From positions 127,139 to 159,138 of the forward strand of contig NZ_JBEZDA010000009.1 of the NCBI RefSeq assembly GCF_040647855.1: a stretch of DNA of 32,000 nt. The letters run 5' to 3'. The stretch is from Nocardia sp. NPDC049220. Lineage in GTDB: Bacteria; Actinomycetota; Actinomycetes; Mycobacteriales; Mycobacteriaceae. The notes under the pieces are model-generated. The model was given only the letters and a program-made list of their open reading frames with translations. It did not search any database and was not told the origin of the DNA. The translations under genes and the position numbers were made by a program. How positions within the stretch are numbered: position 1 is the first letter of the stretch; every line of letters starts with the position of its first letter. Below, in pieces: positions 9,682 to 25,364 of this stretch.

Positions 9682-9775
9682 CGTTCCGGCGCGCGGCGCC
9701 CCGTGCGGCGCACACCGACGTCGAGTCGGTCCGCGCTCCCGTAGCGTGAGTGGTGGTTCGGAAGGAAGGCAGCGA

Positions 9776-10657
9776 GTGGCATCGGAGAGTGCGGGGCAGG
9801 AACCGGTCTTCGGATCGGTGGATGACGTGATCGACCGGTTGGCGAGGACGGGATACCTCGCGGACACGGCCACCGCTACGTCGGTATTTCTTGCGGACAG
9901 GCTGGGCAAGCCACTGCTGATCGAGGGACCGGCCGGTGTGGGCAAGACCGAGTTGGCCCGCGCGATCGCGCAGACCTCGGGTGCCGAGCTGGTCCGATTG
10001 CAGTGCTACGAGGGCGTCGACGAGGCCCGCGCGCTCTACGAGTGGAACCACGCCAAGCAAATCCTGCGTATCCAGGCTTCCAGCGAGAACGACTGGGCGG
10101 AGACGAAGGCCGACGTCTTCACCGAGGAGTTCCTGCTCTCCCGGCCGCTGCTCACCGCGATCCGGCGTACCGATCCCACGGTGCTGCTGATCGACGAGAC
10201 CGACAAGGCCGATGTCGAGATCGAGGGATTGTTGCTCGAGGTACTCAGCGACTTCGCGGTGACCGTCCCGGAGTTGGGCACCATCACCGCCAGCCGTAAG
10301 CCGTTCGTCGTGCTCACCTCGAACGCCACCCGCGAGTTGTCCGAGGCGCTCAAGCGCCGCTGTCTCTACCTGCACCTGGACTTCCCGGATGAGGAGCTGG
10401 AGCGACGGATCCTGGCCAGCCGGGTCCCTGAGCTGTCCGCCGCGATCGCCGCACAGCTGGTGCGGATCGTGCACGTCCTGCGCGGCATGCAACTGAAGAA
10501 GCTGCCCTCGGTCGCCGAATCGATCGATTGGGGACGCACGCTGCTCGCGCTCGGGCTGACGGATCTGGACGACACCGCCGTTCGTGCCACCCTCGGCGTC
10601 GTGCTCAAACATCGCAGTGACCATCAGCGCGCACTGGCCGAATTGAAGCTGGCCTGA
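9776..10657 (+). CDS. MoxR-family AAA+ ATPase
   Basis: Walker A GPAGVGKT and Walker B LLIDETDKAD. GTG at 9776 is preceded by GGAAGGAAGG at 9760-9769. Alternative GTG at 9746. Confidence 0.85.
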   Translation: MASESAGQEPVFGSVDDVIDRLARTGYLADTATATSVFLADRLGKPLLIEGPAGVGKTELARAIAQTSGAELVRLQCYEGVDEARALYEWNHAKQILRIQASSENDWAETKADVFTEEFLLSRPLLTAIRRTDPTVLLIDETDKADVEIEGLLLEVLSDFAVTVPELGTITASRKPFVVLTSNATRELSEALKRRCLYLHLDFPDEELERRILASRVPELSAAIAAQLVRIVHVLRGMQLKKLPSVAESIDWGRTLLALGLTDLDDTAVRATLGVVLKHRSDHQRALAELKLA

Positions 10658-10660
10658 GCG

Positions 10661-12088
10661 ATGGCGACCGGATCGGTCCCCGCGGATCTTGCGCCATTGG
10701 CTGCGTCGAACGGACTGCCCGGGCATCTGGTCGGGTTCGTGGCGGCGCTGCGGGCGCGCGGAATTCCGGTCGGTCCCTCGGAAACGGTGGACGCGGGTCG
10801 TGTGGTGACCGTGCTCGACCTGATGGACCGCGAAGTCCTGCGCGAGGGGTTGGCCTGTGCGTTGCTGCGGCGCACCACGCACCGCGCGACCTTCGATGGA
10901 ATGTTCGACCTGTGGTTTCCGGCCGCGGTAGGTGAACGCACCTCGGCGCCGGACGAGGTCGAGATTCCGCACACCCGCTTGGGCGACGTGGACATTCCGG
11001 CGTTGCGTGAGCTGCTCGCGCGCCTGCTCGGGCAGGAGGCAGCCACCGCGCAGCTGGCGGCGCTGGCCGCGCAGCTGGTCGAACAGCTCGGTCAGTACCA
11101 ATCTGCCCGTGGCCCTTCATTTTCGGCGTATCAGGCATTACGTGAGGTGCAGCCGCAGACCCTGTTGGCCGAGATCGTCGCCGGGCTGGCCGCCGGACCG
11201 GACGCCAATGCTTTCGACACCGAGATCGCCCGCCGTACGGTGCGCCGACGCATCGACCGGTTCCGCGCGACCGTGGAGGCCGAGACCAGGCGGCGCGCCG
11301 CTGAACGGATCGGCCGGGAACGTGTCGCGACCTACGGCGTCGCCCGTCAAGCCGAGGATGTCGACTTCCTGCGCGCCTCCGAGGCCGAACTGGCCGAGCT
11401 CAAGCGTGGCACGCAGCGCCTTGCGCGCATCCTCGCGGCGCGCCTCGCCGCGCGGCGCAGGCACTCTCGGCGCGGCGAGATCGATCTGCGGCGTACCCTG
11501 CGCAAATCCATGTCGACCGGCGGAGTGCCGATCGACCTGGTGCACCGCAAACCGCGTCCCGGTCGCCCTGAGTTGGTGCTGCTGTGCGATGTGTCGGGGT
11601 CGGTGGCAGGCTTCAGTAACTTCACGTTGCTGCTGGTGAGCGCGCTGCGCGAACAGTTCTCCCGGGTGCGGATCTTCGCATTCGTCGACCAGGTGGACGA
11701 GGTGACCCGGTTCTTCGATCCGCACACCCGACTCGACACGGCGATGACGAAGATCTTCACCGAGGCGAGTGTGGTCGGCGTGGATGGGCACTCGGACTAC
11801 GGCAATGCGTTGGCCGGATTCGTCAGGGACTATCCCGATGCCGTCACCAGCCGAAGTTCGCTGCTGATTCTCGGTGACGCACGCACCAATTACCGAGATC
11901 CGGAGTTGACGACGCTGCGATCACTGGTTGATATCGCCAAGCATGCACACTGGCTCAACCCGGAGCCGCGCAACCAGTGGGGTTCGGGCGATTCCGCCGC
12001 CGACAGATACGGGCAAGTGATCGAGATGCACGAATGCCGGTCGGCGAAGCAGTTGACCGCCGTGGTGTCCCGGCTGCTGCCGGTCTGA
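10661..12088 (+). CDS. VWA domain-containing protein (CoxE-like), partner of the MoxR ATPase
   Basis: Starts 3 nt after the moxR-like stop. MIDAS motif in LVLLCDVSGSVAGFS. The C-terminal half resembles a von Willebrand A domain. Confidence 0.85.
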   Translation: MATGSVPADLAPLAASNGLPGHLVGFVAALRARGIPVGPSETVDAGRVVTVLDLMDREVLREGLACALLRRTTHRATFDGMFDLWFPAAVGERTSAPDEVEIPHTRLGDVDIPALRELLARLLGQEAATAQLAALAAQLVEQLGQYQSARGPSFSAYQALREVQPQTLLAEIVAGLAAGPDANAFDTEIARRTVRRRIDRFRATVEAETRRRAAERIGRERVATYGVARQAEDVDFLRASEAELAELKRGTQRLARILAARLAARRRHSRRGEIDLRRTLRKSMSTGGVPIDLVHRKPRPGRPELVLLCDVSGSVAGFSNFTLLLVSALREQFSRVRIFAFVDQVDEVTRFFDPHTRLDTAMTKIFTEASVVGVDGHSDYGNALAGFVRDYPDAVTSRSSLLILGDARTNYRDPELTTLRSLVDIAKHAHWLNPEPRNQWGSGDSAADRYGQVIEMHECRSAKQLTAVVSRLLPV

Positions 12089-12249: not shown

Positions 12250-12939
12250 CTAGTCTTTTTCTTCGACCTCGACCTCTACCTCGAATTCGAATTCGACTAC
12301 GTTTTCATCGTCGTCTTCGACTTCATCCCATTCTGAATCGTCCGCGCATGCAATCCAATACAATGCATAATATCGTTCCTCCACCACCTGAGGGTCGATG
12401 TTATCCATGACCCCTTCGCATAGGCGTAGGGCAAGATAATAGTGTAGCTCTTCGGCTATCTCCTGCCGCGGGCGGAGTGTGACGCTTCGGATAAATGGCT
12501 GCAAAGGATCGCCTAATCCGGGCAAGTGGTCGATAACCGATGAGCCGTCCATTCTTTCATCGGGTTCGATCATGGTCGGAATTGTTCCCGAAGCCCACAG
12601 TAGTACGTAGAGGGACTCTGCTCGCCAGGTCAGTAGGTTCGTTTGCATCGCCCGCTGTCGCCACAGCATCTCCGCTTCGGGCAACTCGGTCAATTCGAAT
12701 GCCCATTTTTCTCGCTCGGTCAGTTCATGCAGGAAATTCTCTTTCTCCATCCATTCTTTGACCTCCCGGGGGTCGCGGTGGAAAATGACCCCGAGCAATG
12801 CGTGTAGCGCAATTATTCGTTTGGCTATTTCGGTAGGAGAGCGGAGACGGACGGAAAAAACCTCGTCGATTTCAGGAAGGTGTTCCGCTTTCAATCTCAC
12901 GCCGTGCTGTTCCAATCGAATTCGTGTGGACAGCGTCAT
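12250..12939 (-). CDS. hypothetical protein: low-GC orphan with poly-acidic C-terminal tail (tentatively DUF4272-like)
   Basis: ORF 12250..12957. ATG at 12939 is preceded by GAAAGG; TTG at 12957 is the alternative. Visibly AT-richer than every neighbour. The tail reads DDSEWDEVEDDDENVVEFEFEVEVEVEEKD. The central block WRAESLYVLLWASG recalls DUF4272, but this is from memory and unverified. Confidence 0.75.
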   Translation of the reverse strand: MTLSTRIRLEQHGVRLKAEHLPEIDEVFSVRLRSPTEIAKRIIALHALLGVIFHRDPREVKEWMEKENFLHELTEREKWAFELTELPEAEMLWRQRAMQTNLLTWRAESLYVLLWASGTIPTMIEPDERMDGSSVIDHLPGLGDPLQPFIRSVTLRPRQEIAEELHYYLALRLCEGVMDNIDPQVVEERYYALYWIACADDSEWDEVEDDDENVVEFEFEVEVEVEEKD

Positions 12940-13059
12940 TGCACACCTTTCTGTCAACTAGCATCGATATCGCGTGCCGGTGGGTCTGTTGTCGGTGGTC
13001 GAGAGGGGTGGTTGGTGGGGTCTGATTTCGGGTTGTTGTCTGACACGACGAAGCCGCCT

Positions 13060-13097
13060 GTTTCGCCAGGTGGGGTGGGTTTCGCCAGGTCCGGTTG
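13060..13097. repeat. tandem 19-bp unit x2 (exact 12-bp core GTTTCGCCAGGT) inside a G-run-rich tract
   Basis: GTTTCGCCAGGT occurs at 13060-13071 and again at 13079-13090. The surrounding plus strand (about 12990-13135) is full of GG/GGGG runs, e.g. GAGGGGTGGTTGGTGGGG and GGTGGGGTTGGGG. Confidence 0.8.
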
Positions 13098-13139
13098 GTC
13101 TTTCGGGTCGAGTGGACGGTGGGGTTGGGGTCAGGTGAA

Positions 13140-13470
13140 TGCGGCGCGGAGGCGGCGGCGATGGCGGTGGCCCACCGCCAGATGGTGTCGATGCGAAGCC
13201 GGGCTCGTCGGGTGCGGCGGGCGTCGATGTGCGGCACACGGCCGCGGACGGTGTCGATCTCGCGGGTCGCCAGATCGGGGTGGTCGACGTAGCCGATGAG
13301 TTCGGCCCCAGTTCCAGACCGGCGGGTGGGCGACTGCATGGCGGACGATCCGCTGGTCGACCAGCCGCCACATCGTGGTCGTCGATGCGGCCACCCCGAA
13401 CGCATGCGAACGGTCACCGCAGGGTTTCGCTCGTATCCGGCCCAGCGTTGCGATACTTCACCTGCGAAGT
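13140..13470 (-). pseudogene. frame-broken remnant of an HTH-type (transposase/excisionase-like) gene
   Basis: Two minus-strand frames each show strong G/C third-position bias over adjacent segments. One reads ...GDRSHAFGVAASTTTMWRLVDQRIVRHAV (an HTH-like FGV..ST..W.LV pattern) to about 13310. It then shifts to ...GAELIGYVDHPDLATREIDTVRGRVPHIDARRTRRARLRIDTIWRWA. No single intact ORF with a sensible start exists. Family not identified. Confidence 0.35.
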
Positions 13471-13851
13471 GCCTTTCACTCAGGTTTGTGGAACCGTTGA
13501 GAACCATTATGCCTTGCGGGACAGGCGCTTTCGCGTTCCATCCGCCCCGACGAGCGAACTTTCGCGGAAATTCCAGGTTGAGCACTGCAACGCAACCGCC
13601 TGTCGACCACCCCCTATGGGTTGGCTCAGGTTGGGCTCGAATGGCAGCACTCGCTCGCTTCGGCCACGCTATGTGGGGACGGCCGTGACGACGCCTCCGT
13701 CGTCGACGAACCAGCGTCTGAAATTCGACTGTAAGTTCGCGTATGTCGTGGTGTGTGGAGGGTGCCGTACGCCATTCGGTAGTCAGGCTTGTTGGCCCGG
13801 ACGCCCGGCAAACCGGTCACCCGGCGATGTTCAGGGCAGCTACCGTGCAAC

Positions 13852-13883
13852 TACTTGTCTCAAGTACGGTACTTATATATACT
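13852..13883 (+). promoter_or_regulatory. putative promoter (-35 TTGTCT 13855-13860, 17-nt spacer, -10 TATACT 13878-13883) overlapped by nested palindromes
   Basis: TACTTG-tct-CAAGTA at 13852-13866 and AAGTAC-g-GTACTT at 13862-13874, in an AT-rich stretch 30-60 nt upstream of the flavin reductase ATG. RBS GGGAGG at 13901-13906. Confidence 0.4.
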
Positions 13884-13910
13884 TTCTCCTAGTCGTTCTA
13901 GGGAGGACTC

Positions 13911-14492
13911 ATGCAGTTGCGGGCAGTCGATCTCGACCGCACCGGTTTCCGCTCGGCGCTGGGCCGCTTCGCGTCGAGCGTCAACGTGATCTCGATGTGG
14001 GACGAGGAGGGCAGGCCTATCGGCATGACCGCCACAGCCTTCTCTTCGGTCTCCGACGATCCGTTGCTGGTGCTCATCTGCGTCAATCGTGCCACCCGGA
14101 CCTACGGGCACATCACGCGTGGCGGCCGGTTCGGCGTCAACATCCTCGGATCGGCGGCAGTTTCCATCTCGAACCACTGCGCGCGACCGGGCTCGGACAA
14201 GGGCTTGGCCCCGGAGTGGCTGGCGACGGACGCGGGCTGGTCATCGCCGGCCCTGAAGGATGCCCTTGCCTTCCTGGATTGCACGGTCGACAGCGATACC
14301 TCCGCAGGCACGCACGCAATCCTGGTCGGCAGAGTGACAGGGGTCGGCATTGCGACCCACGGCGAGCCGTTGCTGTACTTCGGCGGTCGCTACCAGCAGC
14401 TGCACCCCGAAGTGCAGTATCGGTCGCCGCTTCCGCTTCCGATCGCCTGGGACGGCGGGGACCCGGCGGTCCTGGCCGCCGTGGCCTCCTGA
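13911..14492 (+). CDS. flavin reductase family protein (HpaC-like NAD(P)H:flavin oxidoreductase)
   Basis: RBS GGGAGG 5 nt upstream. Flavin-reductase-domain blocks FRSALGRFASSVNVIS, GMTATAFSSVSDDPLLVLICVN and GRFGVNIL. Confidence 0.85.
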   Translation: MQLRAVDLDRTGFRSALGRFASSVNVISMWDEEGRPIGMTATAFSSVSDDPLLVLICVNRATRTYGHITRGGRFGVNILGSAAVSISNHCARPGSDKGLAPEWLATDAGWSSPALKDALAFLDCTVDSDTSAGTHAILVGRVTGVGIATHGEPLLYFGGRYQQLHPEVQYRSPLPLPIAWDGGDPAVLAAVAS

Positions 14493-14493
14493 G

Positions 14494-15090
14494 ATGGGAA
14501 CTGTGGGGCGACTGATCGTCGGCGTCACTGGTGCGTCCGCTCCGATCCTCGCAATCAGGACATTGCAAGCGCTGCGCGCGGCTGGGATCGAGACCCATCT
14601 CGTGATCTCCCGCGGAGCGCGCCGGACCCTCGCGCTGGAAGAGCCCTCATGGGGTCTGGCCGACGTCGAGGCGCTGGCCGACTTCGTGCACCGACCGGAG
14701 GACATGGCTGCGCCGATCGCCAGCGGTTCGTTTCGGGTGCGCGGCATGGTCGTCGTCCCATGCTCGATGAACACCCTTTCGCACATCGCCCACTCCGCCA
14801 CGCCGGACCTGGTGGCACGCGCCGCGGACGTGACCCTCAAGGAACGTCGCCGGCTCGTGCTGGTCCCACGGGAGAGCCCACTGCACCTCGGCCACCTGCG
14901 CAATCTGCTGGCGGCGACTGAACTCGGCGCGATCGCGGTGCCTCCGGTGATCGGGACCTATTACAAGCCGCAGACCGTGCTGGACGTGGTCGACCACGTG
15001 GTGGGGCGTGTCCTCGACCTCTTCGACATCGAGCACGATCTCGTCAACCGCTGGAATGGGCCGCCGCAGAGCCCCGGCGGTGGCATATGA
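14494..15090 (+). CDS. ubiX: UbiX-family flavin prenyltransferase (prFMN synthase)
   Basis: ATG at 14494, 1 nt after the flavin reductase stop. N-terminal LIVGVTGASAPILAIRTLQAL, then PCSMNTLSHIA and ERRRLVLVPRESPL, typical of UbiX/Pad1. Confidence 0.9.
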   Translation: MGTVGRLIVGVTGASAPILAIRTLQALRAAGIETHLVISRGARRTLALEEPSWGLADVEALADFVHRPEDMAAPIASGSFRVRGMVVVPCSMNTLSHIAHSATPDLVARAADVTLKERRRLVLVPRESPLHLGHLRNLLAATELGAIAVPPVIGTYYKPQTVLDVVDHVVGRVLDLFDIEHDLVNRWNGPPQSPGGGI

Positions 15091-15590
15091 CCGGGACACG
15101 ATTGTCCGCTGAACACATCGCCGACCTGACTGCCTCTGCTCAGCCTCGCGACCAGGCGCTGCTGCTGTTGTCGGTGGATGAAGCGGGGACGCCGCGGGTC
15201 GCCCTGCTGAGCCGCGCCGAGGTGCACGTCGTCGCTGACAGTCTGCTGCTGGTGGCGGTGTGGTCTGGCAGTCGATCGGCGACCAATATCGAGCGCTCCG
15301 GCGCGGCCACCTTGTTCTGGGTCGTGGACGGGGCCGCGGTGTCGGCCTCATTGCGGTGTGCCGGTAGCAGGCCCCTCGCCGCGGCGCCATCGGGCGAGCT
15401 GGCAGAACGCGCGCTGCGCGCGCTCACTCTTCGGGTTGTGGATGTGCGTGTGGACGAGGTCGGTTATGCGGAGCTGACCGCGCCCCTGATGTTTGCGGTC
15501 CACGAACCGGAGGAGATAATGTCCCGCTGGGAGGATGTCGCACGGCGCCTCGGTGCCGTTGCGCTGGGCCTCCAGGACGGTTCCGATTAG
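15087..15590 (+). CDS. hypothetical protein, PNPOx-like (FMN-binding split-barrel) by pattern
   Basis: ATGA start/stop overlap with ubiX at 15087-15090. The pattern LLLLSVDEAGTPRVALLS..EVHVV.DSLLLVAVWSGSRSATNIERSGAATLFWVVDG resembles pyridoxamine-5'-phosphate-oxidase-family proteins. The functional assignment is tentative. Confidence 0.65.
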   Translation: MTGTRLSAEHIADLTASAQPRDQALLLLSVDEAGTPRVALLSRAEVHVVADSLLLVAVWSGSRSATNIERSGAATLFWVVDGAAVSASLRCAGSRPLAAAPSGELAERALRALTLRVVDVRVDEVGYAELTAPLMFAVHEPEEIMSRWEDVARRLGAVALGLQDGSD

Positions 15591-15606
15591 AGGGGGGTGG
15601 TGACTG

Positions 15607-16158
15607 ATGGACGACGGAGCACTGCGGGCGTATGCGACCTGGTCGGACATCGGGGCGAGCCAACGGGCGACCGAGTTCCGCTCCTACACGTTCAACATCG
15701 CCGAAGCGCGCTACGTGATGCGTCGGGTCACTCGGATCATCAACGAGGAAGCCAAGAAACGCGGTTTCGATCCGCTGCAACACCAGGCATTGCTGCAAAC
15801 CTACGGCATCCGTGACGGTGAGCAACTGACTATCAGTGGGCTCGGCGAGCGACTCGATGTTCCCGCGGCCTTCGCCTCACGGCTGGTCCGTAAGCTCGAG
15901 AGCGAGGGTTACGTCACCCGCATGCATTCCGAGCGGGACAAGCGAGTCACCTTCGTCCAGGCCACAGACGCCGGCGTGCAGGTGCTGCGTGAAATCGACG
16001 AGCAAGTACATCGCCACGTGGCCTACTTCCAGCATTCCCTCAGCGAACATCAGCGCATCGCAGCGTTGTCGATTTTCGCGTTCTACGTGGGGATCGACGC
16101 GGAGTCGCCGATCGCCGAGGCGCTGCGCGAGGGTCGCATCCAACCGGAGAACGTCTGA
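15607..16158 (+). CDS. MarR family transcriptional regulator
   Basis: Winged-HTH block LTISGLGERLDVPAAFASRLVRKLESEGYVTRMHSERDKRVTFVQATDAG. Lies 16 nt after the previous stop, with AGGGGGGTGG as RBS. Confidence 0.85.
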   Translation: MDDGALRAYATWSDIGASQRATEFRSYTFNIAEARYVMRRVTRIINEEAKKRGFDPLQHQALLQTYGIRDGEQLTISGLGERLDVPAAFASRLVRKLESEGYVTRMHSERDKRVTFVQATDAGVQVLREIDEQVHRHVAYFQHSLSEHQRIAALSIFAFYVGIDAESPIAEALREGRIQPENV

Positions 16159-16244
16159 TTGCTGCCCTGGGCGCGAGTTCGCCCTGGTGTATGTGGTGAG
16201 CCGGGTCCGTTCCGGACAGCGAGCGCAGCACAGCAACTGGCCAA

Positions 16245-16279
16245 AGTACTTGACTTGAGTCTAGTACTGAAGTTAGCGT
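16245..16279 (+). promoter_or_regulatory. 24-bp near-palindrome (operator candidate) overlapping a putative promoter (-35 TTGACT, -10 TAGCGT)
   Basis: AGTACTTGACTT|GAGTCTAGTACT at 16245-16268 matches its reverse complement at 20 of 24 positions. TTGACT at 16251-16256, 17-nt spacer, TAGCGT at 16274-16279. About 60 nt upstream of the SBP ATG and 87 nt downstream of the marR stop. Confidence 0.45.
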
Positions 16280-16331
16280 CTTCTCTCATTAGTGAGGCGT
16301 GTTACACGCCCAGCATGAGGAGAGGTACGCA

Positions 16332-17369
16332 ATGGAGCACCGAGGACCCACTGGGCCGTTCGGCAGGCTCGCGTCGCGGGGAATCCTGACGCGGCGACGC
16401 GCTCTGGCCCTCGTGGGCGCAGCCCTGGTTCCGGCACTCGCGGCCTGTGGGAGCGGATCGTCGGGCACGTCCGGTCCATCCGACACAGTGCGAGTCGCGA
16501 TCGCGCCCACCGGCACCGCGTTGCCGGTCGTCGTCGCCGACAAACAGGGCTTCTTCAAGGCGCAGGGCCTGAAGGTCACCTTCCAGGTATCGAACGTCTC
16601 GATCTCGGACCAGCTCGCGACGCTCGGCAGGCAGTTCGACGTCGCGATGGGCACGCAGCCGGCGCTGATCACCGCTGCCGCCCATCGGATCGCGCTCGCC
16701 AACATCACCGGCGGCGCGATCGATTCGAAGGCCAACCCGCAGACCGACTTCGTCGCCTCGGCCGCCAGCGGCATCACGTCCTACGCCGAGCTGGAGGGGA
16801 AGAACCTCGGGGCGCTCTCGCTCACCGGCAACATCCACTACGCGGTGCTGAACGCGGCCAAACAGGCTGGTGCGCCGTTGGACAAGGCCAATTGGGTCGT
16901 CGGTACGGTGCCGCAGTTGCCGGACACCCTTCGGGCGGGCCGGGCCGACGGCATCGAGGAGATCGAGCCGTTCGCGAGCATGACGGTCGCCAACGGTGGA
17001 GTCTCACTCGGTTCGCCGTTCCGCTCGCTCGGCGACGAGGCGTTCCTCGGTATCTTCCTCGCGTCCAAGGGCTGGGCGGATGCCAACGAGGAGACGGTAC
17101 TGAAGTTCAACACCGCACTGGCCCAGGCCGCGGACTGGATCACGGCGAACCAGGCGGATGCCCTGGAGCTGATGGGCACGTACACGGGTGCCAGCAAGGC
17201 GGTACTCGCCAAGACCCGGATCCCGGACTATAGGTTCCAGACGACCGCGGCCGATCTCGCGTCGGTGCAGGGCGCCGACACCGAGACCTGGATCGAGCTG
17301 CTCCGGGAGTTCGGGAATTTCAAGGGTCGCGTGAGTCCCGCCGACGTCCTGCCGGGGTGGGCGAAATGA
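16332..17369 (+). CDS. ABC transporter substrate-binding lipoprotein (NMT1/THI5-like, NitT/TauT-type) with Tat-type signal
   Basis: ATG at 16332 preceded by AGGAGAGG. Signal region LTRRRALALVGAALVPALAAC has a twin-arginine motif plus the lipobox LAAC. The mature part resembles the NMT1/SsuA-like periplasmic binding fold. Confidence 0.85.
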   Translation: MEHRGPTGPFGRLASRGILTRRRALALVGAALVPALAACGSGSSGTSGPSDTVRVAIAPTGTALPVVVADKQGFFKAQGLKVTFQVSNVSISDQLATLGRQFDVAMGTQPALITAAAHRIALANITGGAIDSKANPQTDFVASAASGITSYAELEGKNLGALSLTGNIHYAVLNAAKQAGAPLDKANWVVGTVPQLPDTLRAGRADGIEEIEPFASMTVANGGVSLGSPFRSLGDEAFLGIFLASKGWADANEETVLKFNTALAQAADWITANQADALELMGTYTGASKAVLAKTRIPDYRFQTTAADLASVQGADTETWIELLREFGNFKGRVSPADVLPGWAK

Positions 17370-20493: not shown

Positions 20494-21266
20494 GTAGCGC
20501 GGCACCGGCGCGCCAGCGGCGGCGCACGTCCGGGATCCCGCCACTTCGCGGATTGCTGCCACTGGTCGTGCTGCTCGTACTGTGGCAGCTGCTGGTCTCG
20601 CCCGACGATCCCTACTTCCCCCCACCGAGCCGTTGGTTCGCGGCGCTCGGCGATCTCGGTACGGCGGGCGCACTGTGGCCATCGATATTCACCACCCTGC
20701 TGAGTTTCGTGCTCGCTCTGGTGATCGCCGTCGTGGTCGGGGCTGCGCTGGGTGTCGGCGTGGGTCGCGCTCCCGTCGCCGACCGAGTCCTCGGTCCGAC
20801 CTTCGAGTTCATCCGGACGATCCCGGCCGGCGCGATGGTGCCGGTCGCGGTGTTGGTCATCGGCTACACGCGCTCGATGACGGTCGCCGTCGTGGTCGTG
20901 ACGTCACTGTGGCCGGTGCTGTTGGCCACTCGCGCGGCTGCTCGCGAGCTCGATGTCGCTCGGCTGGAAGCGGCTCGGGTAATGCATCTGGGCCGGTTCG
21001 AGACCTTCCGCAAGATCGTGCTGCCCTCCCTGAGCTCGAGTATCGTGCTGGGCCTGCAGATCACCGCCCCGTTGGCACTGATCATCACCATCGTCGTCGA
21101 GCTGATCACCCAGGTCGACGGGATCGGCAAGCAGATCAGCCTCGCCCAGTCCCAGTTCCAGAGTGAGACGGTGTACGGGCTGGTGGCTGTCACCTGTCTG
21201 ATCGGGCTCGCTGTCAACCTGGTGGCCGCGGTCGTTGCCCGCGCTACCCGTCGCTATGTCGCCTGA
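20490..21266 (+). CDS. ABC transporter permease (second, paralogous)
   Basis: GTG at 20490 overlaps the previous stop as GTGA. EAA-like loop ARVMHLGRFETFRKIVLPSL. In frame with the longer track ORF 20121..21266, whose N-terminus is an Arg-rich overlap artefact. Confidence 0.85.
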   Translation: MSSAAPARQRRRTSGIPPLRGLLPLVVLLVLWQLLVSPDDPYFPPPSRWFAALGDLGTAGALWPSIFTTLLSFVLALVIAVVVGAALGVGVGRAPVADRVLGPTFEFIRTIPAGAMVPVAVLVIGYTRSMTVAVVVVTSLWPVLLATRAAARELDVARLEAARVMHLGRFETFRKIVLPSLSSSIVLGLQITAPLALIITIVVELITQVDGIGKQISLAQSQFQSETVYGLVAVTCLIGLAVNLVAAVVARATRRYVA

Positions 21267-21282
21267 GTCGAGGAAGGACCAC

Positions 21283-22851
21283 ATGACCTACCCGTACGAG
21301 GACTTTCGTGACTACCTGAATTCACTGGACGAGTCGGGCCTGCTCGTGCGGGTCACCGCACCGGTGGACAAGGATACCGAGTTGGTGCCGCTGGTCCGCC
21401 TACAGTTCCGCGGACTGCCGGAGGAGAAGCGCCGGGCCTTCCTCTTCGAGAATGTGACCGATAGCCGGGGCAGGCGGTTCGACGGCGGAGTGGCGATCGC
21501 CACCTTCGCAGCGTCGCGTCGCGTCTACGCCCATGCACTCGGTGCCGATCTGGACCGGCTCGGTGAGGTCTGGCAGCGGGCGCTGTCCGAGCCGATCGAG
21601 CCCGAGATCGTCGAGACCGGGCCGTGCAAGGAGCGGATTCTGCTCGGGGATGAGATCGTGTCCTCGGGTGGGGTCGACGCGTTTCCCCATCCCATCTCGA
21701 CGCCCGGCTTCGACAACGCGCCATTCCTGACCTCGCCGTACTGGGTCACCAAGGACCCGGAGACCGGCGAGTACAACGTCGGAACCTACCGCGGCATGAT
21801 CAAGGGGCCGGGTGTGGTGGGCCTGCAGATGGACACCCCGAGTCAGCACATCGCCATCCACCTTCGCAAGGCGCGGAAGCTGGGGAAACCGCTCGAGGTC
21901 GCGGTGGTACTCGGCGCCGTCCCGGCGGTCGGCCTCGCCAGCGTGCAGAAAGTGCCGTTCGGGGTCAGCGAGTACGCGGTCGCGGGCGGGCTGATGGGCC
22001 GCCCACTGGAGGTCGTACGCTGCGAGACAGTGGACCTGGAGGTTCCGGCCACGGCGGAGATCATCCTGGAGGGCCGGATCGACCCGACGCACCTGGAGCC
22101 GGAGGGCCCGTTCGGTGAGGCCAGCGGTTACATGGGCCCGCGCACGTTGTCGCCGGTGCTGGAGCTGACCGCGATCACGCATCGCGAGCGGCCAGTGGTG
22201 CAGGCGTTCATCAGCGAGTTTCCGCCCAGTGAGTCCACGCTGATGCGCAAGATCGGGTTCGAGAACGTCTATCGGCGGTTCTTGCAGCAGTCCTGCAACA
22301 TCTCCTCGGTCGTCGACGTGACCTTCTACGAGATGGCAACCTGCAACATGTTCTTCGTCATCCGCATGAAGGACCCGTCACCGGGCCAGGCGTGGCAGGC
22401 GCTGTACGCCGCCTCGGGGTACGAGCCGTCGATGGGTAAGTACATCGTGGCGGTGGACGACGATGTCGATCCGTCCGATCTCGGGTCGGTGGTGTGGGCA
22501 CTGAGTTTCCGCACGCAGCCCGCGCATGACGTGAAGGTTCTCGGGGACAAGTTGCCCCGGCTCGACCCGTCGATGCCACTGCCGCTCGGTGCGGATCCGG
22601 TGGCGAGCGGTTCGGCCATGCTCATCGACGCGACCCGGTCGCACCCGTACCCGCCGACGTCACTGCCCGCTGAACCGTACATGGACGCCGCAGTGCGGCG
22701 CTGGAACGACCTCGGCCTCGGACCACTCGATCTCGCCGCCCCCGTCCACGGCTATGAACTAGGAGATTGGACGGAGGAGAACCGCGAAGAGGCGGCATTG
22801 GCCGTACTGGGCCGCTATCTGGAGACCGGTGCGAAGTTGCACGGCGCGTGA
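21283..22851 (+). CDS. UbiD-family (prFMN-dependent) reversible decarboxylase
   Basis: ATG at 21283 preceded by GAGGAAGGA. N-terminus YEDFRDYLNSLDESGLLVRVTAPVDKDTEL and the block EGPFGEASGYMG (compare EGPFGDHTGYY in UbiD enzymes). About 522 aa. Confidence 0.9.
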   Translation: MTYPYEDFRDYLNSLDESGLLVRVTAPVDKDTELVPLVRLQFRGLPEEKRRAFLFENVTDSRGRRFDGGVAIATFAASRRVYAHALGADLDRLGEVWQRALSEPIEPEIVETGPCKERILLGDEIVSSGGVDAFPHPISTPGFDNAPFLTSPYWVTKDPETGEYNVGTYRGMIKGPGVVGLQMDTPSQHIAIHLRKARKLGKPLEVAVVLGAVPAVGLASVQKVPFGVSEYAVAGGLMGRPLEVVRCETVDLEVPATAEIILEGRIDPTHLEPEGPFGEASGYMGPRTLSPVLELTAITHRERPVVQAFISEFPPSESTLMRKIGFENVYRRFLQQSCNISSVVDVTFYEMATCNMFFVIRMKDPSPGQAWQALYAASGYEPSMGKYIVAVDDDVDPSDLGSVVWALSFRTQPAHDVKVLGDKLPRLDPSMPLPLGADPVASGSAMLIDATRSHPYPPTSLPAEPYMDAAVRRWNDLGLGPLDLAAPVHGYELGDWTEENREEAALAVLGRYLETGAKLHGA

Positions 22852-23803: not shown

Positions 23804-23879
23804 TTTTGGTTGCCTGTTCTTGCTGAATATTGATCTCGGGCGGGCAGGACCTGCTCATTGGAATGAGGAGGGACGGGCG

Positions 23880-25364
23880 ATGACCCGGTCTGGCAAGGAC
23901 TACATCTCGGGCCTGAAGGACGGGCGTCGGGTGTTCATCGACGGCGAGTACGTCTCCGACGTCGCCGCGCACCCGGCTTTCGCCGGTGCCGTCGCGTCGA
24001 TAGCGAACGTTTACGACAACGCCAACGCGCCCGCGAACCGCGAGGTCATGACGTACCCGTCGCCTACCACCGGCGATCCGGTGAATCTGTCGTTCCTGAT
24101 TCCGCGCAGCGAGGACGACCTGCGGCGCAGGCGCACCGCGTTGCGTCTCTCGGCCGAGACAACCGCGGGACTGATGGGCCGGGGTCCCGAGCACGTGGCA
24201 GGGTTCCTCGCCGGCTGGGCCGGGCGGGCGGACGTCTTCGCCGAGGGTGGGGATCGGTTCGCCGCGAACATCACGGCGTTCTACGAGCACGTGCGTGACA
24301 ACGACCTCTACTGCAGTTACGCAATCGTGCCGCCGCAAATCGACCGCAGCAAGCCCGCTCACCAGCAGGCTGATCCGCACCTCTATGCCGGTGTCAAAGA
24401 AGAGCGCGAGGATGGCATTGTGCTGGCCGGCGCGCAGATGCTCGGCACCGGTGCGGCGATCTCGGACTACCTGATCCTCTCCTGCATCGTGCCGTTGCGG
24501 GAGGGAGACGAAAACTACGCGATTTCGGTTGCCATCCCGCTCGGCGCGCAGGGGCTGAAAGTCTACTCGCGGCGCAGCTACGCCGAAGGTGCTACCAGCG
24601 TCTTCGATTACCCGCTGGCCAGCCAGTTCGACGAGACCGATGCGCTGATCGTGCTCGACGACGTCTTCGTGCCCTGGGAGCGGGTCTTCGTCTTCCGCAA
24701 CCGCGATGTCCTTTCCGGTTCCTGGAACCGCACTCCCGCGCACCTGCTGGGCAACAACCAGGCACAGATCCGCTTCTCGGTGAAGCTCGACCTGCTCACC
24801 GGGCTGGCGCAACGCGTCGCGGCGATGAATGGCTCGGACACGTTCCCGCCCGTCCGCGGCACGCTCGGCCAGTTGGCCGCGCACGCGGCCATGGTCAGCG
24901 GGCTGGTCGCGGCGCAGGAGCAGGAGTGCGAGATCGATGAGCATGGCGTGGCCTGGCCCGCCCGCACGCCCAACTTCGCCATCCAGACCCTGCAGTCGGA
25001 GTTCTACCCGAAGTTGCTGCAGATGGTCCGCGAGCTGTGCGGCGGCGGTGTCATCCAGCTGCCGTCCGACATCCGCGACTACGACAACCCAGAGGCCGCG
25101 GCCGACCTGGAGCGTTACGTCCAGTCACCGGGCTGGAGCAGTGTTGAGCGGGTCAAACTGCTCAAGTTGGTCTGGGATCTGGTCGGCTCGGAATTCGCGG
25201 GCCGGCACGAGCAGTACGAGATGTTCTACGCCGGGGCCCCGTTCCTCGTCCGCACACGGATGGCGCAGGTCTACGATTTCGCCGCTGCGGAGGCATTGGT
25301 GGACCGGGTGATGAGTACCTACGACCGGTCCGGCCGGATCGCATCGGACGGATCGGCGGCCTGA
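23880..25364 (+). CDS. HpaB-type (4-hydroxyphenylacetate 3-monooxygenase family) flavin-dependent oxygenase component
   Basis: ATG at 23880 preceded by GAGGAGGGA. N-terminus MTRSGKDYISGLKDGRRVFIDGEYVSDVAAHPAF is typical of the HpaB/PvcC family. About 494 aa. Confidence 0.9.
   Translation: MTRSGKDYISGLKDGRRVFIDGEYVSDVAAHPAFAGAVASIANVYDNANAPANREVMTYPSPTTGDPVNLSFLIPRSEDDLRRRRTALRLSAETTAGLMGRGPEHVAGFLAGWAGRADVFAEGGDRFAANITAFYEHVRDNDLYCSYAIVPPQIDRSKPAHQQADPHLYAGVKEEREDGIVLAGAQMLGTGAAISDYLILSCIVPLREGDENYAISVAIPLGAQGLKVYSRRSYAEGATSVFDYPLASQFDETDALIVLDDVFVPWERVFVFRNRDVLSGSWNRTPAHLLGNNQAQIRFSVKLDLLTGLAQRVAAMNGSDTFPPVRGTLGQLAAHAAMVSGLVAAQEQECEIDEHGVAWPARTPNFAIQTLQSEFYPKLLQMVRELCGGGVIQLPSDIRDYDNPEAAADLERYVQSPGWSSVERVKLLKLVWDLVGSEFAGRHEQYEMFYAGAPFLVRTRMAQVYDFAAAEALVDRVMSTYDRSGRIASDGSAA

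What the first reader, a model, noticed from the sequence alone, without database searches (positions are those of the whole stretch)
13911..15590. Flavin reductase - UbiX - PNPOx-like tricistron: a possible self-contained prFMN supply/maturation module
**What is seen**
- The flavin reductase stop and the ubiX ATG are 1 nt apart.
- ubiX and the PNPOx-like ORF overlap as ATGA.

**Why it matters**
- UbiX needs reduced FMN plus a dimethylallyl phosphate donor.
- UbiD enzymes need prFMN that must still be oxidatively matured.
- A reductase immediately upstream could feed FMNH2 to UbiX, and reduced flavin to the HpaB-type oxygenase 10 kb away, which has no reductase of its own nearby.
- A small FMN-binding split-barrel protein translationally coupled to UbiX is a plausible but undemonstrated prFMN carrier, chaperone or oxidase.
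Basis: inference. Interest (0 to 1): 0.6.

Follow-up and report, generated by a model that had tools for sequence, protein, structure and literature searches.

The report
UbiX operon with PhdC-like flavin maturase
Three tightly packed genes in a Nocardia-like catabolic island encode a flavin reductase, the prenyl-flavin synthase UbiX and a small protein related to PhdC, the recently characterised enzyme that activates that cofactor. The guessed role of the third gene therefore already has a published precedent, and the reductase belongs mainly to the island's oxygenase.

Summary
Flavin reductase (13911-14492), UbiX (14494-15090) and a 167-aa ORF (15087-15590) are packed with a 1-nt gap and an ATGA overlap. 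MarR follows, and a promoter with a perfect palindrome lies upstream.

- **The third ORF.** It has no significant Pfam hit. It is a homologue of PhdC of Mycolicibacterium fortuitum, the published prFMN oxidative maturase (phmmer E 1.5e-9). The model has pLDDT 95, and its nine best solved-structure matches are all PhdC (TM 0.73-0.81).
- **Its family.** It is large: 358 clusters at E<=1e-10. It sits beside ubiX in 18 of 22 loci from several phyla.
- **Key residues.** PhdC's Glu47, Phe126 and Trp138 are kept. The proposed base Glu136 is Ser here and varies across the family.
- **The reductase.** Its orthologues follow the HpaB/UbiD island and overlap hpaB in three genera. None lies beside 30 other ubiX genes. 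It is best read as the oxygenase's partner; feeding UbiX remains possible.

In the sister genome the island holds the only UbiX, UbiD and PhdC-like genes. Related islands lack the PhdC-like gene. This scan had already noted UbiX/PhdC-like modules in at least nine other genomes. Verdict: a new member of a known kind.

The parts
13855..13883 (+). Sigma-70-like promoter (TTGTCT, 17 nt, TATACT) of the reductase-ubiX-phdC-like-marR operon
   Evidence: Consensus scan. It was the only promoter-like site in 12900-16400. The TTGTCT element is also present upstream of the Pseudonocardia orthologue. Function is inferred.
13862..13874 (.). Perfect 6-1-6 palindrome AAGTAC-G-GTACTT in the promoter spacer; probable MarR operator
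   Evidence: an exact match here and a 2-mismatch relative at 16244-16256 upstream of the transporter-UbiD operon; 0.12 matches expected by chance. It is conserved in the sister Nocardia genome. A related inverted repeat sits at the same place in Pseudonocardia. The operator role is inferred.
13911..14492 (+). HpaC-type NAD(P)H:flavin reductase, 193 aa
   Evidence: PF01613, 123 bits. Best NCBIfam and solved-structure matches are reductase components of two-component monooxygenases such as HsaB, HpaC, StyB and PheA2. Orthologues overlap hpaB in Amycolatopsis, Streptomyces and Trebonia.
14494..15090 (+). UbiX flavin prenyltransferase, 198 aa
   Evidence: NCBIfam NF004685, 242.6 bits (cut-off 188); TIGR00421, 212.6 bits (cut-off 108.9). 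It is the only UbiX in the sister genome G001.
15087..15590 (+). PhdC-family split-barrel protein, 167 aa; probable prFMN oxidative maturase or handler
   Evidence: phmmer against solved structures: E 1.5e-9 to PhdC 9SRG/9NK0. AF2 model pLDDT 95.2. Foldseek ranks 1-9 are all PhdC, TM 0.73-0.81. It lies next to ubiX in 18 of 22 loci.
15607..16158 (+). MarR-family regulator, last gene of the operon
   Evidence: PF12802 and PF01047. It holds the same position in the Pseudonocardia operon.
21235..22851 (+). UbiD-family decarboxylase, the presumed client of the prFMN made here (start codon uncertain)
   Evidence: PF01977, PF20696 and PF20695. TIGR00148, 261 bits. Nearest solved enzyme is HmfF, 6H6X, E 1.2e-53. 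It is the only UbiD in G001.
23820..25364 (+). HpaB-type oxygenase component, the presumed client of the flavin reductase (start codon uncertain)
   Evidence: PF11794, 320 bits, and PF03241, 189 bits. No reductase gene lies beside it. The other HpaB of G001 has its own reductase directly upstream.

Best explanation
Genes 13911-16158 form one MarR-controlled 'cofactor service' operon for the adjacent catabolic island.

1. The HpaC-type reductase uses NAD(P)H to make free reduced flavin. Its main client is the island's HpaB-type two-component oxygenase.
2. The same pool of FMNH2 may also be used by UbiX. This step is inferred, not shown.
3. UbiX prenylates FMNH2 to prFMNH2.
4. The 167-aa protein is a member of the PhdC family. 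It binds the prenylated flavin and most likely converts off-pathway prFMN radical or prFMNH2 into the active iminium form.
5. It then hands the cofactor on to the island's single, HmfF-like UbiD decarboxylase.

Shown here: the gene identities, the homology and fold match to PhdC, the UbiX linkage of the family, and the HpaB linkage of the reductase. Inferred: the catalytic activity of this particular protein (it lacks PhdC's Glu136), flavin flow from the reductase to UbiX, and operator control by MarR.
For: **ORF3 belongs to the PhdC family**
- phmmer gives E 1.5e-9 to PhdC chains 9SRG and 9NK0. A family profile gives E 1.9e-15.
- The AF2 model has pLDDT 95.2 and pTM 0.89.
- Foldseek ranks 1-9 are all PhdC entries, including the prFMN-bound 9NK2, with TM 0.73-0.81 and 26-27% identity.

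**Residues**
- E45 aligns with PhdC Glu47, the residue mutated in 9NK3/9NK4. It is present in 141 of 143 family members.
- F136 aligns with Phe126 and W148 with Trp138.

**Linkage to UbiX**
- 18 of 22 independent loci carrying a family member have ubiX within 1.5 kb. These come from Actinomycetota, a Dormiibacterota MAG and an unclassified MAG.
- In 401 evenly sampled Actinomycetota genomes, 11 of 13 family-positive genomes have UbiX, against 75 of 388 others. Fisher p = 1.4e-6.

**Self-containment**
- G001 (Nocardia sp. NPDC049190, 92-99% identical proteins across the island) has exactly one UbiX, one UbiD and one PhdC-like gene, all in this island.

**Reductase**
- Orthologues (53-79% identity) always lie in islands with HpaB and UbiD.
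- They overlap the hpaB start by 4 nt in Amycolatopsis, Streptomyces and Trebonia.
- None of 30 other ubiX loci has such a reductase next door.

**Published function of PhdC**
- It oxidises prFMN radical to the iminium form and activates UbiDs in vivo (PMC13040415).
Against: - The residue aligned with PhdC Glu136, proposed as the C1' proton-abstracting base in a strictly conserved ExW motif, is Ser146 here. That position is Glu in only 29 of 143 family members.
- The position aligned with the 'always hydrophobic' residue 132 is Glu142.
- Identity to PhdC is only 26-27%.
- A syntenic Pseudonocardia operon goes straight from ubiX to marR, with no such gene.
- The family model found no match in the Amycolatopsis and Streptomyces genomes that carry related islands, so the gene looks dispensable for this kind of UbiD. 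Incomplete genomes cannot show absence.
- The reductase lies next to ubiX in four island variants: this window, Pseudonocardia, metagenome locus L025 and Streptomyces L026. A specific link to UbiX therefore cannot be excluded.
- No biochemical data exist for any of these proteins.
Confidence: 0.72

Rival explanations
1. ORF3 is a non-catalytic binder of prenylated flavin. It would be a carrier or chaperone that protects prFMNH2 and passes it from UbiX to UbiD, functionally like LpdD, rather than an oxidase.
For: - The proposed catalytic base Glu136 of PhdC is Ser146 here and varies across the family.
- Co-expression effects of PhdC and of the chaperone LpdD on E. coli UbiD are similar in size, according to PMC13040415.
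- The UbiX linkage fits a carrier as well as an enzyme.
Against: - Glu47 of PhdC, the other active-site acid and the one chosen for the E45A mutant structures, is nearly invariant (141 of 143) and is present here as E45.
- The fold and flavin site are those of PhdC, not of LpdD.
- A conserved acidic residue (D/E140, 109 of 143) sits in the loop before the C-terminal helix and could replace Glu136. This is inference.
Confidence: 0.18
2. The reductase is a dedicated FMNH2 supplier for UbiX. The three genes would then form a complete NAD(P)H-to-active-prFMN pipeline, and HpaB would draw reduced flavin from elsewhere.
For: - There is a 1-nt gap between the reductase stop and the ubiX start.
- The reductase is adjacent to ubiX in four island variants.
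- UbiX needs FMNH2 (PMC13040415).
Against: - Orthologues overlap hpaB in three genera, and in two of them no ubiX lies within 10 kb.
- None of 30 other actinobacterial ubiX loci, and none of the other PhdC-like loci, has a homologous reductase beside it.
- G001 has seven Flavin_Reduct genes, and its other HpaB has its own reductase directly upstream. That leaves this reductase as the natural partner of the island's HpaB.
Confidence: 0.08
3. ORF3 is an ordinary PNPOx-like, FMN- or F420-binding protein acting on a pathway intermediate, with no role in prFMN handling.
For: - Weaker Foldseek matches include F420-dependent reductases and general PNPOx-like proteins (ranks 13-40).
- The only Pfam hit is a weak PNPOx_N match.
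Against: - The best matches by sequence and by fold are PhdC, well ahead of the next group (E 5e-11 against 1e-5).
- The family travels with ubiX across phyla and in different catabolic contexts.
- It is missing from islands that share the same pathway genes.
Confidence: 0.03

Closest known systems
PhdC of Mycolicibacterium fortuitum, the prFMN oxidative maturase of the phdABC operon (DiRocco et al. 2024, ACS Catal 14:10223, cited in PMC13040415; structures 9SRG/9SRJ and 9NK0-4, 9O5M)
   Same: - Similar size (167 against 163 aa).
- Same split-barrel, HpaC-like fold (TM 0.73-0.81).
- Detectable sequence homology (E 1.5e-9).
- Glu47, Phe126 and Trp138 equivalents are present.
- The gene abuts ubiX and serves a UbiD decarboxylase of a catabolic island in an aerobic actinobacterium.
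   Different: - Only 26-27% identity.
- Ser replaces Glu136 of the ExW motif, and Glu stands at the 'hydrophobic 132' position.
- It has Trp59 and Ser62, nearly invariant in the wider family, where PhdC has Val and Pro.
- The operon is reductase-ubiX-phdC-like-marR and is separated from ubiD by a transporter/amidase operon, rather than the three-gene operon of phdA (decarboxylase), phdB (prenyltransferase) and phdC.
- The activity is untested.
YclD of Priestia megaterium, and the structural-genomics protein 2Q9K of Exiguobacterium
   Same: - Small PhdC-like barrel.
- YclD is a putative UbiDX accessory protein, and its co-expression activates E. coli UbiD (PMC13040415).
- 2Q9K is the next-best fold match after PhdC (TM 0.71/0.80).
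   Different: - YclD keeps Glu136 and lacks Trp138; here it is the reverse.
- Very low sequence identity (15% to 2Q9K).
- Firmicute context.
LpdD, the prFMNH2-binding chaperone of the gallate decarboxylase LpdC (PMC10865409, cited in PMC13040415)
   Same: An accessory protein of a UbiX/UbiD system that raises UbiD activation.
   Different: - The PhdC paper describes it as a prFMNH2-binding chaperone for which no direct catalytic role in maturation was found.
- No LpdD entry appears among the listed fold matches of the ORF3 model.
HpaC/StyB/PheA2-type class I flavin reductases of two-component monooxygenases
   Same: - The first gene has the full Flavin_Reduct domain.
- Its best matches are such reductase components.
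- Its orthologues are translationally coupled to hpaB.
   Different: - Here it is placed 9 kb from its oxygenase and directly before ubiX.
- The family motifs read SDDPL and GTH rather than SxxPP and GDH (read directly).
- Its flavin and nicotinamide preferences are unknown.

Membership tests
PhdC-type prFMN maturase | Small (about 150-170 aa) HpaC-like/PNPOx-like split-barrel fold with a C-terminal helix | tested here: met
   AF2 model pLDDT 95.2. Foldseek ranks 1-9 are PhdC entries, TM 0.73-0.81.
PhdC-type prFMN maturase | Significant sequence homology to PhdC | tested here: met
   phmmer E 1.5e-9 over residues 20-139. Family profile E 1.9e-15.
PhdC-type prFMN maturase | Active-site Glu47 (E45 in the numbering of 9NK3/9NK4) | tested here: met
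   E45 aligns with it. It is present in 141 of 143 family members.
PhdC-type prFMN maturase | C-terminal ExW motif: Glu136, the proposed C1' base | tested here: not met
   Ser146 aligns with Glu136. The Phe-to-Trp spacing is identical, and a MAFFT alignment that includes the PhdC-clade members L035 and L036 agrees; the sequence of the near-identical PhdC homologue in L016 was read directly. Glu stands at this position in only 29 of 143 relatives.
PhdC-type prFMN maturase | C-terminal ExW motif: Trp138 | tested here: met
   W148, present in 141 of 143 relatives.
PhdC-type prFMN maturase | Prenyl-ring pocket: Phe126 and a hydrophobic residue at 132 | tested here: inconclusive
   F136 aligns with Phe126. 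By linear alignment residue 132 corresponds to Glu142, with hydrophobic I144 and M145 close by. No residue-level superposition was possible.
PhdC-type prFMN maturase | Gene linked to ubiX and ubiD | tested here: met
   ATGA overlap with ubiX. 18 of 22 family loci have ubiX adjacent. Genome co-occurrence p = 1.4e-6.
PhdC-type prFMN maturase | Catalyses prFMN radical to prFMN iminium and raises holo-UbiD activity | not testable with these tools
   This needs enzyme assays of the kind described in PMC13040415.
UbiX flavin prenyltransferase | Scores above the curated family cut-offs | tested here: met
   NF004685, 242.6 bits (cut-off 188). TIGR00421, 212.6 bits (cut-off 108.9).
Class I HpaC-like flavin reductase | Full-length Flavin_Reduct domain | tested here: met
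   PF01613, 123.4 bits, covering model positions 1-152 of 153.
Class I HpaC-like flavin reductase | SxxPP and GDH motifs (named in PMC13040415, section 3.5) | tested here: inconclusive
   The sequence reads S-D-D-P-L and G-T-H at the candidate positions (read by eye). These are near matches only, and their alignment to the motifs was not verified.
Class I HpaC-like flavin reductase | Partnered with a two-component oxygenase | tested here: met
   HpaB is in the same island. Orthologues overlap hpaB in three genera.

The most novel reading that the evidence does not exclude
Most of the PhdC family, this protein included, lacks the ExW glutamate proposed as the catalytic base. These proteins may mature prFMN by a different route, for example using Glu47 alone or the conserved D/E140, possibly with another oxidant. 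In this island the co-translated reductase may make the operon a complete NAD(P)H-to-active-prFMN line, with one enzyme feeding both UbiX and the oxygenase.
Probability: 0.22. Interest if true: 0.55.

Novelty: new member of a known kind. Interest (0 to 1): 0.32.

Why it matters
How UbiD decarboxylases receive active prenylated flavin limits their use in biocatalysis, and PhdC is the only dedicated maturase characterised so far.

- **Family size.** The PhdC paper reported 86 PhdC-like sequences from a BLAST search, all from Actinomycetota. This locus shows that PhdC belongs to a much larger UbiX-linked family, with at least 358 clusters at 50% identity and members outside Actinomycetota.
- **Mechanism.** Most members, this one included, lack the glutamate proposed as the catalytic base. 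That gives a cheap test of the proposed mechanism: assay this protein and an S146E or E45A variant.
- **Annotation.** The first gene should be read as the missing reductase of the island's HpaB oxygenase rather than as a UbiX helper.

Beyond that, the locus is an ordinary new example of a known arrangement.

Tried and rejected
- **No genome for the window.** No whole genome is held for it, so the near-identical Nocardia sp. NPDC049190 (G001) served as a stand-in.
- **Pfam and NCBIfam.** Neither gives a significant hit for ORF3.
- **Literature.** Searches for '9NK0' and for prFMN with UbiX and pyridoxamine found nothing. The Marsh-laboratory papers are not in the library.
- **Locus scan.** The 70-sequence alignment was too diverse for the scan, so the 6-sequence alignment was used instead.
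- **UbiD orthologues.** A class-wide search at E<=1e-60 found only G001. The island was then traced through the reductase.
- **C-terminal alignment.** Searching residues 108-167 alone against solved structures did not recover PhdC. The alignment came instead from PhdC-clade genes found in genomes.
- **Upstream AAA/VWA pair rejected as part of the module.** I considered whether the MoxR-type AAA and CoxE-type VWA genes (9746-12088) belong to it, because two other genomes have ubiX-phdC-like-AAA-VWA operons. The window's AAA gene has 64-92% identical orthologues in 36 of 41 genomes of the family, whereas the PhdC-like family occurs in 5 of 401. It is a core gene next to which the island sits.
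- **Covariation.** None was found between Trp59 and Glu at position 146.
- **Upstream gap.** No recognisable gene lies in 12957-13911.
- **No complex prediction.** None was run, because no protein-protein binding is claimed.
Full report
**Observation**

The packing is as described.
- The first frame ends with TGA at 14490-14492. One base follows, then the ubiX ATG at 14494.
- The ubiX stop (15088-15090) overlaps the ATG at 15087 of a 167-aa ORF that ends at 15590.
- A MarR gene starts 16 nt later (15607-16158).
- Gene 1 is a full Flavin_Reduct domain protein (PF01613, 123 bits).
- Gene 2 scores above the curated UbiX cut-offs.
- A sigma-70-like promoter lies at 13855-13883. A perfect palindrome, AAGTAC-G-GTACTT (13862-13874), sits in its spacer. 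A related site lies upstream of the transporter-UbiD operon.
- This promoter and repeat layout recurs in the sister Nocardia genome and, in altered form, in Pseudonocardia.
- No recognisable gene fills 12957-13911.

**Surroundings**

Downstream lie:
- an NMT1-type binding protein, two isochorismatase-family hydrolases and an ABC transporter;
- a UbiD decarboxylase (21235-22851);
- a divergent CN-hydrolase;
- an HpaB-type oxygenase (23820-25364);
- a second NMT1-like protein, DUF2848 and a cupin.

The UbiD is closest to the furandicarboxylate decarboxylase HmfF among solved enzymes. The substrate of the island is unknown.

**What the third ORF is**

- Pfam gives only a non-significant PNPOx_N hit (E 0.19).
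- A sequence search of solved structures gives E 1.5e-9 to chains 9SRG/9SRJ and 9NK0-4/9O5M.
- These chains are PhdC of Mycolicibacterium fortuitum. [quoted passage not shown] The activity was first reported by DiRocco et al. 2024 (reference 5 of that paper).
- An AF2 model built on 70 relatives is confident (pLDDT 95.2).
- Its nine best Foldseek matches are all PhdC entries (TM 0.73-0.81, 26-27% identity). Next come 2Q9K and, far behind, generic PNPOx-like and F420 proteins.

**The family**

- A profile search of 1.84 billion cluster representatives found 767 members at E<=1e-3 and 358 at E<=1e-10. The PhdC paper reported 86 PhdC-like sequences from a BLAST search, all Actinomycetota.
- Nearly invariant positions are G34, P36, S42, E45, A57, W59, N67, D123, Y127, A128, R147 and W148.
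- PhdC-clade genes were recovered from genomes, including a near-identical PhdC homologue in L016. Read against these (for L035 and L036; for PhdC itself):
  - E45 corresponds to PhdC Glu47, the residue mutated in the E45A structures.
  - F136 corresponds to Phe126.
  - W148 corresponds to Trp138.
  - Glu136 of the 'strictly conserved ExW' motif corresponds to Ser146.
- That position is Glu in only 29 of 143 relatives.
- So the protein is a real but divergent member, and it lacks the residue proposed as the proton-abstracting base.

**Link to UbiX**

- Of 22 independent loci carrying a family member, 18 have ubiX within 1.5 kb. They include a Dormiibacterota MAG, an unclassified MAG, Nitriliruptoraceae and Acidimicrobiaceae.
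- In 401 evenly sampled genomes of the phylum, 13 carry the family and 86 carry UbiX. Eleven of the 13 carry UbiX, and the two exceptions are the weakest matches. Fisher p = 1.4e-6.
- The tally of 86, and one of the 30 ubiX loci (L048), include the unpublished genome G269. Leaving it out changes no conclusion.
- Within the family Mycobacteriaceae as sampled, only 5 of 401 genomes have a member, each beside ubiX.
- In G001 (Nocardia sp. NPDC049190), whose island proteins are 92-99% identical to the window's, there is exactly one UbiX, one UbiD and one PhdC-like gene, all in the island. The island is therefore self-contained for prFMN.

**The gene is optional**

- The syntenic Pseudonocardia operon runs reductase-ubiX-marR, with a 68-nt spacer where ORF3 would be.
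- The family model found no match in the Amycolatopsis and Streptomyces genomes with related islands, although it hits G001 at 1.4e-44. Incomplete genomes cannot show absence.
- This fits the published picture that some UbiDs mature their cofactor unaided.

**The reductase**

Its orthologues (53-79% identity) always sit in islands that hold both HpaB and UbiD.

| Source | Arrangement |
|---|---|
| Pseudonocardia | reductase precedes ubiX |
| Metagenome locus L025 | reductase precedes ubiX |
| Streptomyces | between ubiX and hpaB, overlapping hpaB |
| Amycolatopsis | overlaps hpaB; no ubiX within 10 kb |
| Trebonia | overlaps hpaB; no ubiX within 10 kb |
| Thermocrispum-like contig | lies before ubiD |

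- None of the 30 best ubiX loci of the phylum sample, and none of the other PhdC-like loci, has a homologous reductase next door.
- G001 has seven Flavin_Reduct genes and two HpaB genes. The second HpaB has its own reductase directly upstream.
- Presence of this reductase is thus predicted by HpaB, not by UbiX. It is best read as the oxygenase's reductase component.
- Because such reductases release free reduced flavin (general knowledge of the HpaC class), it could also supply UbiX. Nothing here tests that.

**Comparison and verdict**

The closest known system is the operon of phdA, phdB and phdC. This locus is a new member of that kind, with three differences:
1. a divergent maturase that lacks Glu136;
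2. an operon that also carries the oxygenase's reductase and a MarR regulator;
3. separation from ubiD by a transporter/amidase operon.

The reductase-feeds-UbiX idea is not specifically supported. This scan had already noted UbiX/PhdC-like modules in at least nine other genomes.

The upstream AAA/VWA pair is a core gene pair of the family, not part of the module. Tight ubiX-phdC-like-AAA-VWA operons do exist in two other actinobacterial genomes.

Noticed in passing
L028 3216-10903 (minus strand; genome G216) and L029 9412-11286 (genome G190): In two other actinobacterial genomes ubiX and the PhdC-like gene head an operon with overlapping stops and starts. The operon continues into a MoxR/CoxD-type AAA ATPase and a CoxE-type VWA protein, then an amidohydrolase, an SDR, a CN-hydrolase and UbiD. 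This hints at a chaperone role for AAA/VWA pairs in UbiD or cofactor maturation.
   Followed up: partly
window 9746-12088: The AAA ATPase and VWA_CoxE pair just upstream of the island has 64-92% identical AAA orthologues in 36 of 41 genomes of the family. It is therefore a core pair beside which the island is inserted, not an island gene.
   Followed up: yes
window 13862-13874 and 16244-16268: A perfect palindrome AAGTAC-G-GTACTT lies in the promoter spacer of the reductase operon, and a related near-palindrome lies upstream of the transporter-UbiD operon. They are likely operators of the island's MarR. A related inverted repeat (TCTCAAGT-N5-ACTTGAGA) sits at the same place in Pseudonocardia (L021 9950-9970).
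   Followed up: partly
L001 251-2447: On a metagenome contig an FMN-dependent alpha-hydroxyacid dehydrogenase-family gene (PF01070) sits between ubiX and a PhdC-like gene. This is another flavoenzyme inserted into the pair.
   Followed up: no
L026 1804-12033 (Streptomyces sp. 4N509B): A related island combines UbiD, UbiX, the reductase and HpaB with a three-subunit xanthine-dehydrogenase-family molybdenum hydroxylase, an Amdase-family protein and several amidases. This suggests that the substrate class of these islands is an N-heteroaromatic carboxylate or carboxamide.
   Followed up: no
L024 286-729 (minus strand): A Thermocrispum-like contig has a PhdC-family gene (E 1.5e-24 with the family model) at the edge of a related HpaB/UbiD island. 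No ubiX was seen in the 20 kb fetched.
   Followed up: no
window 12250-12957 (minus strand): A DUF4272 gene lies antisense between the core AAA/VWA pair and the island. Its homologue is also present in the sister Nocardia genome (L002 5578-6192).
   Followed up: no
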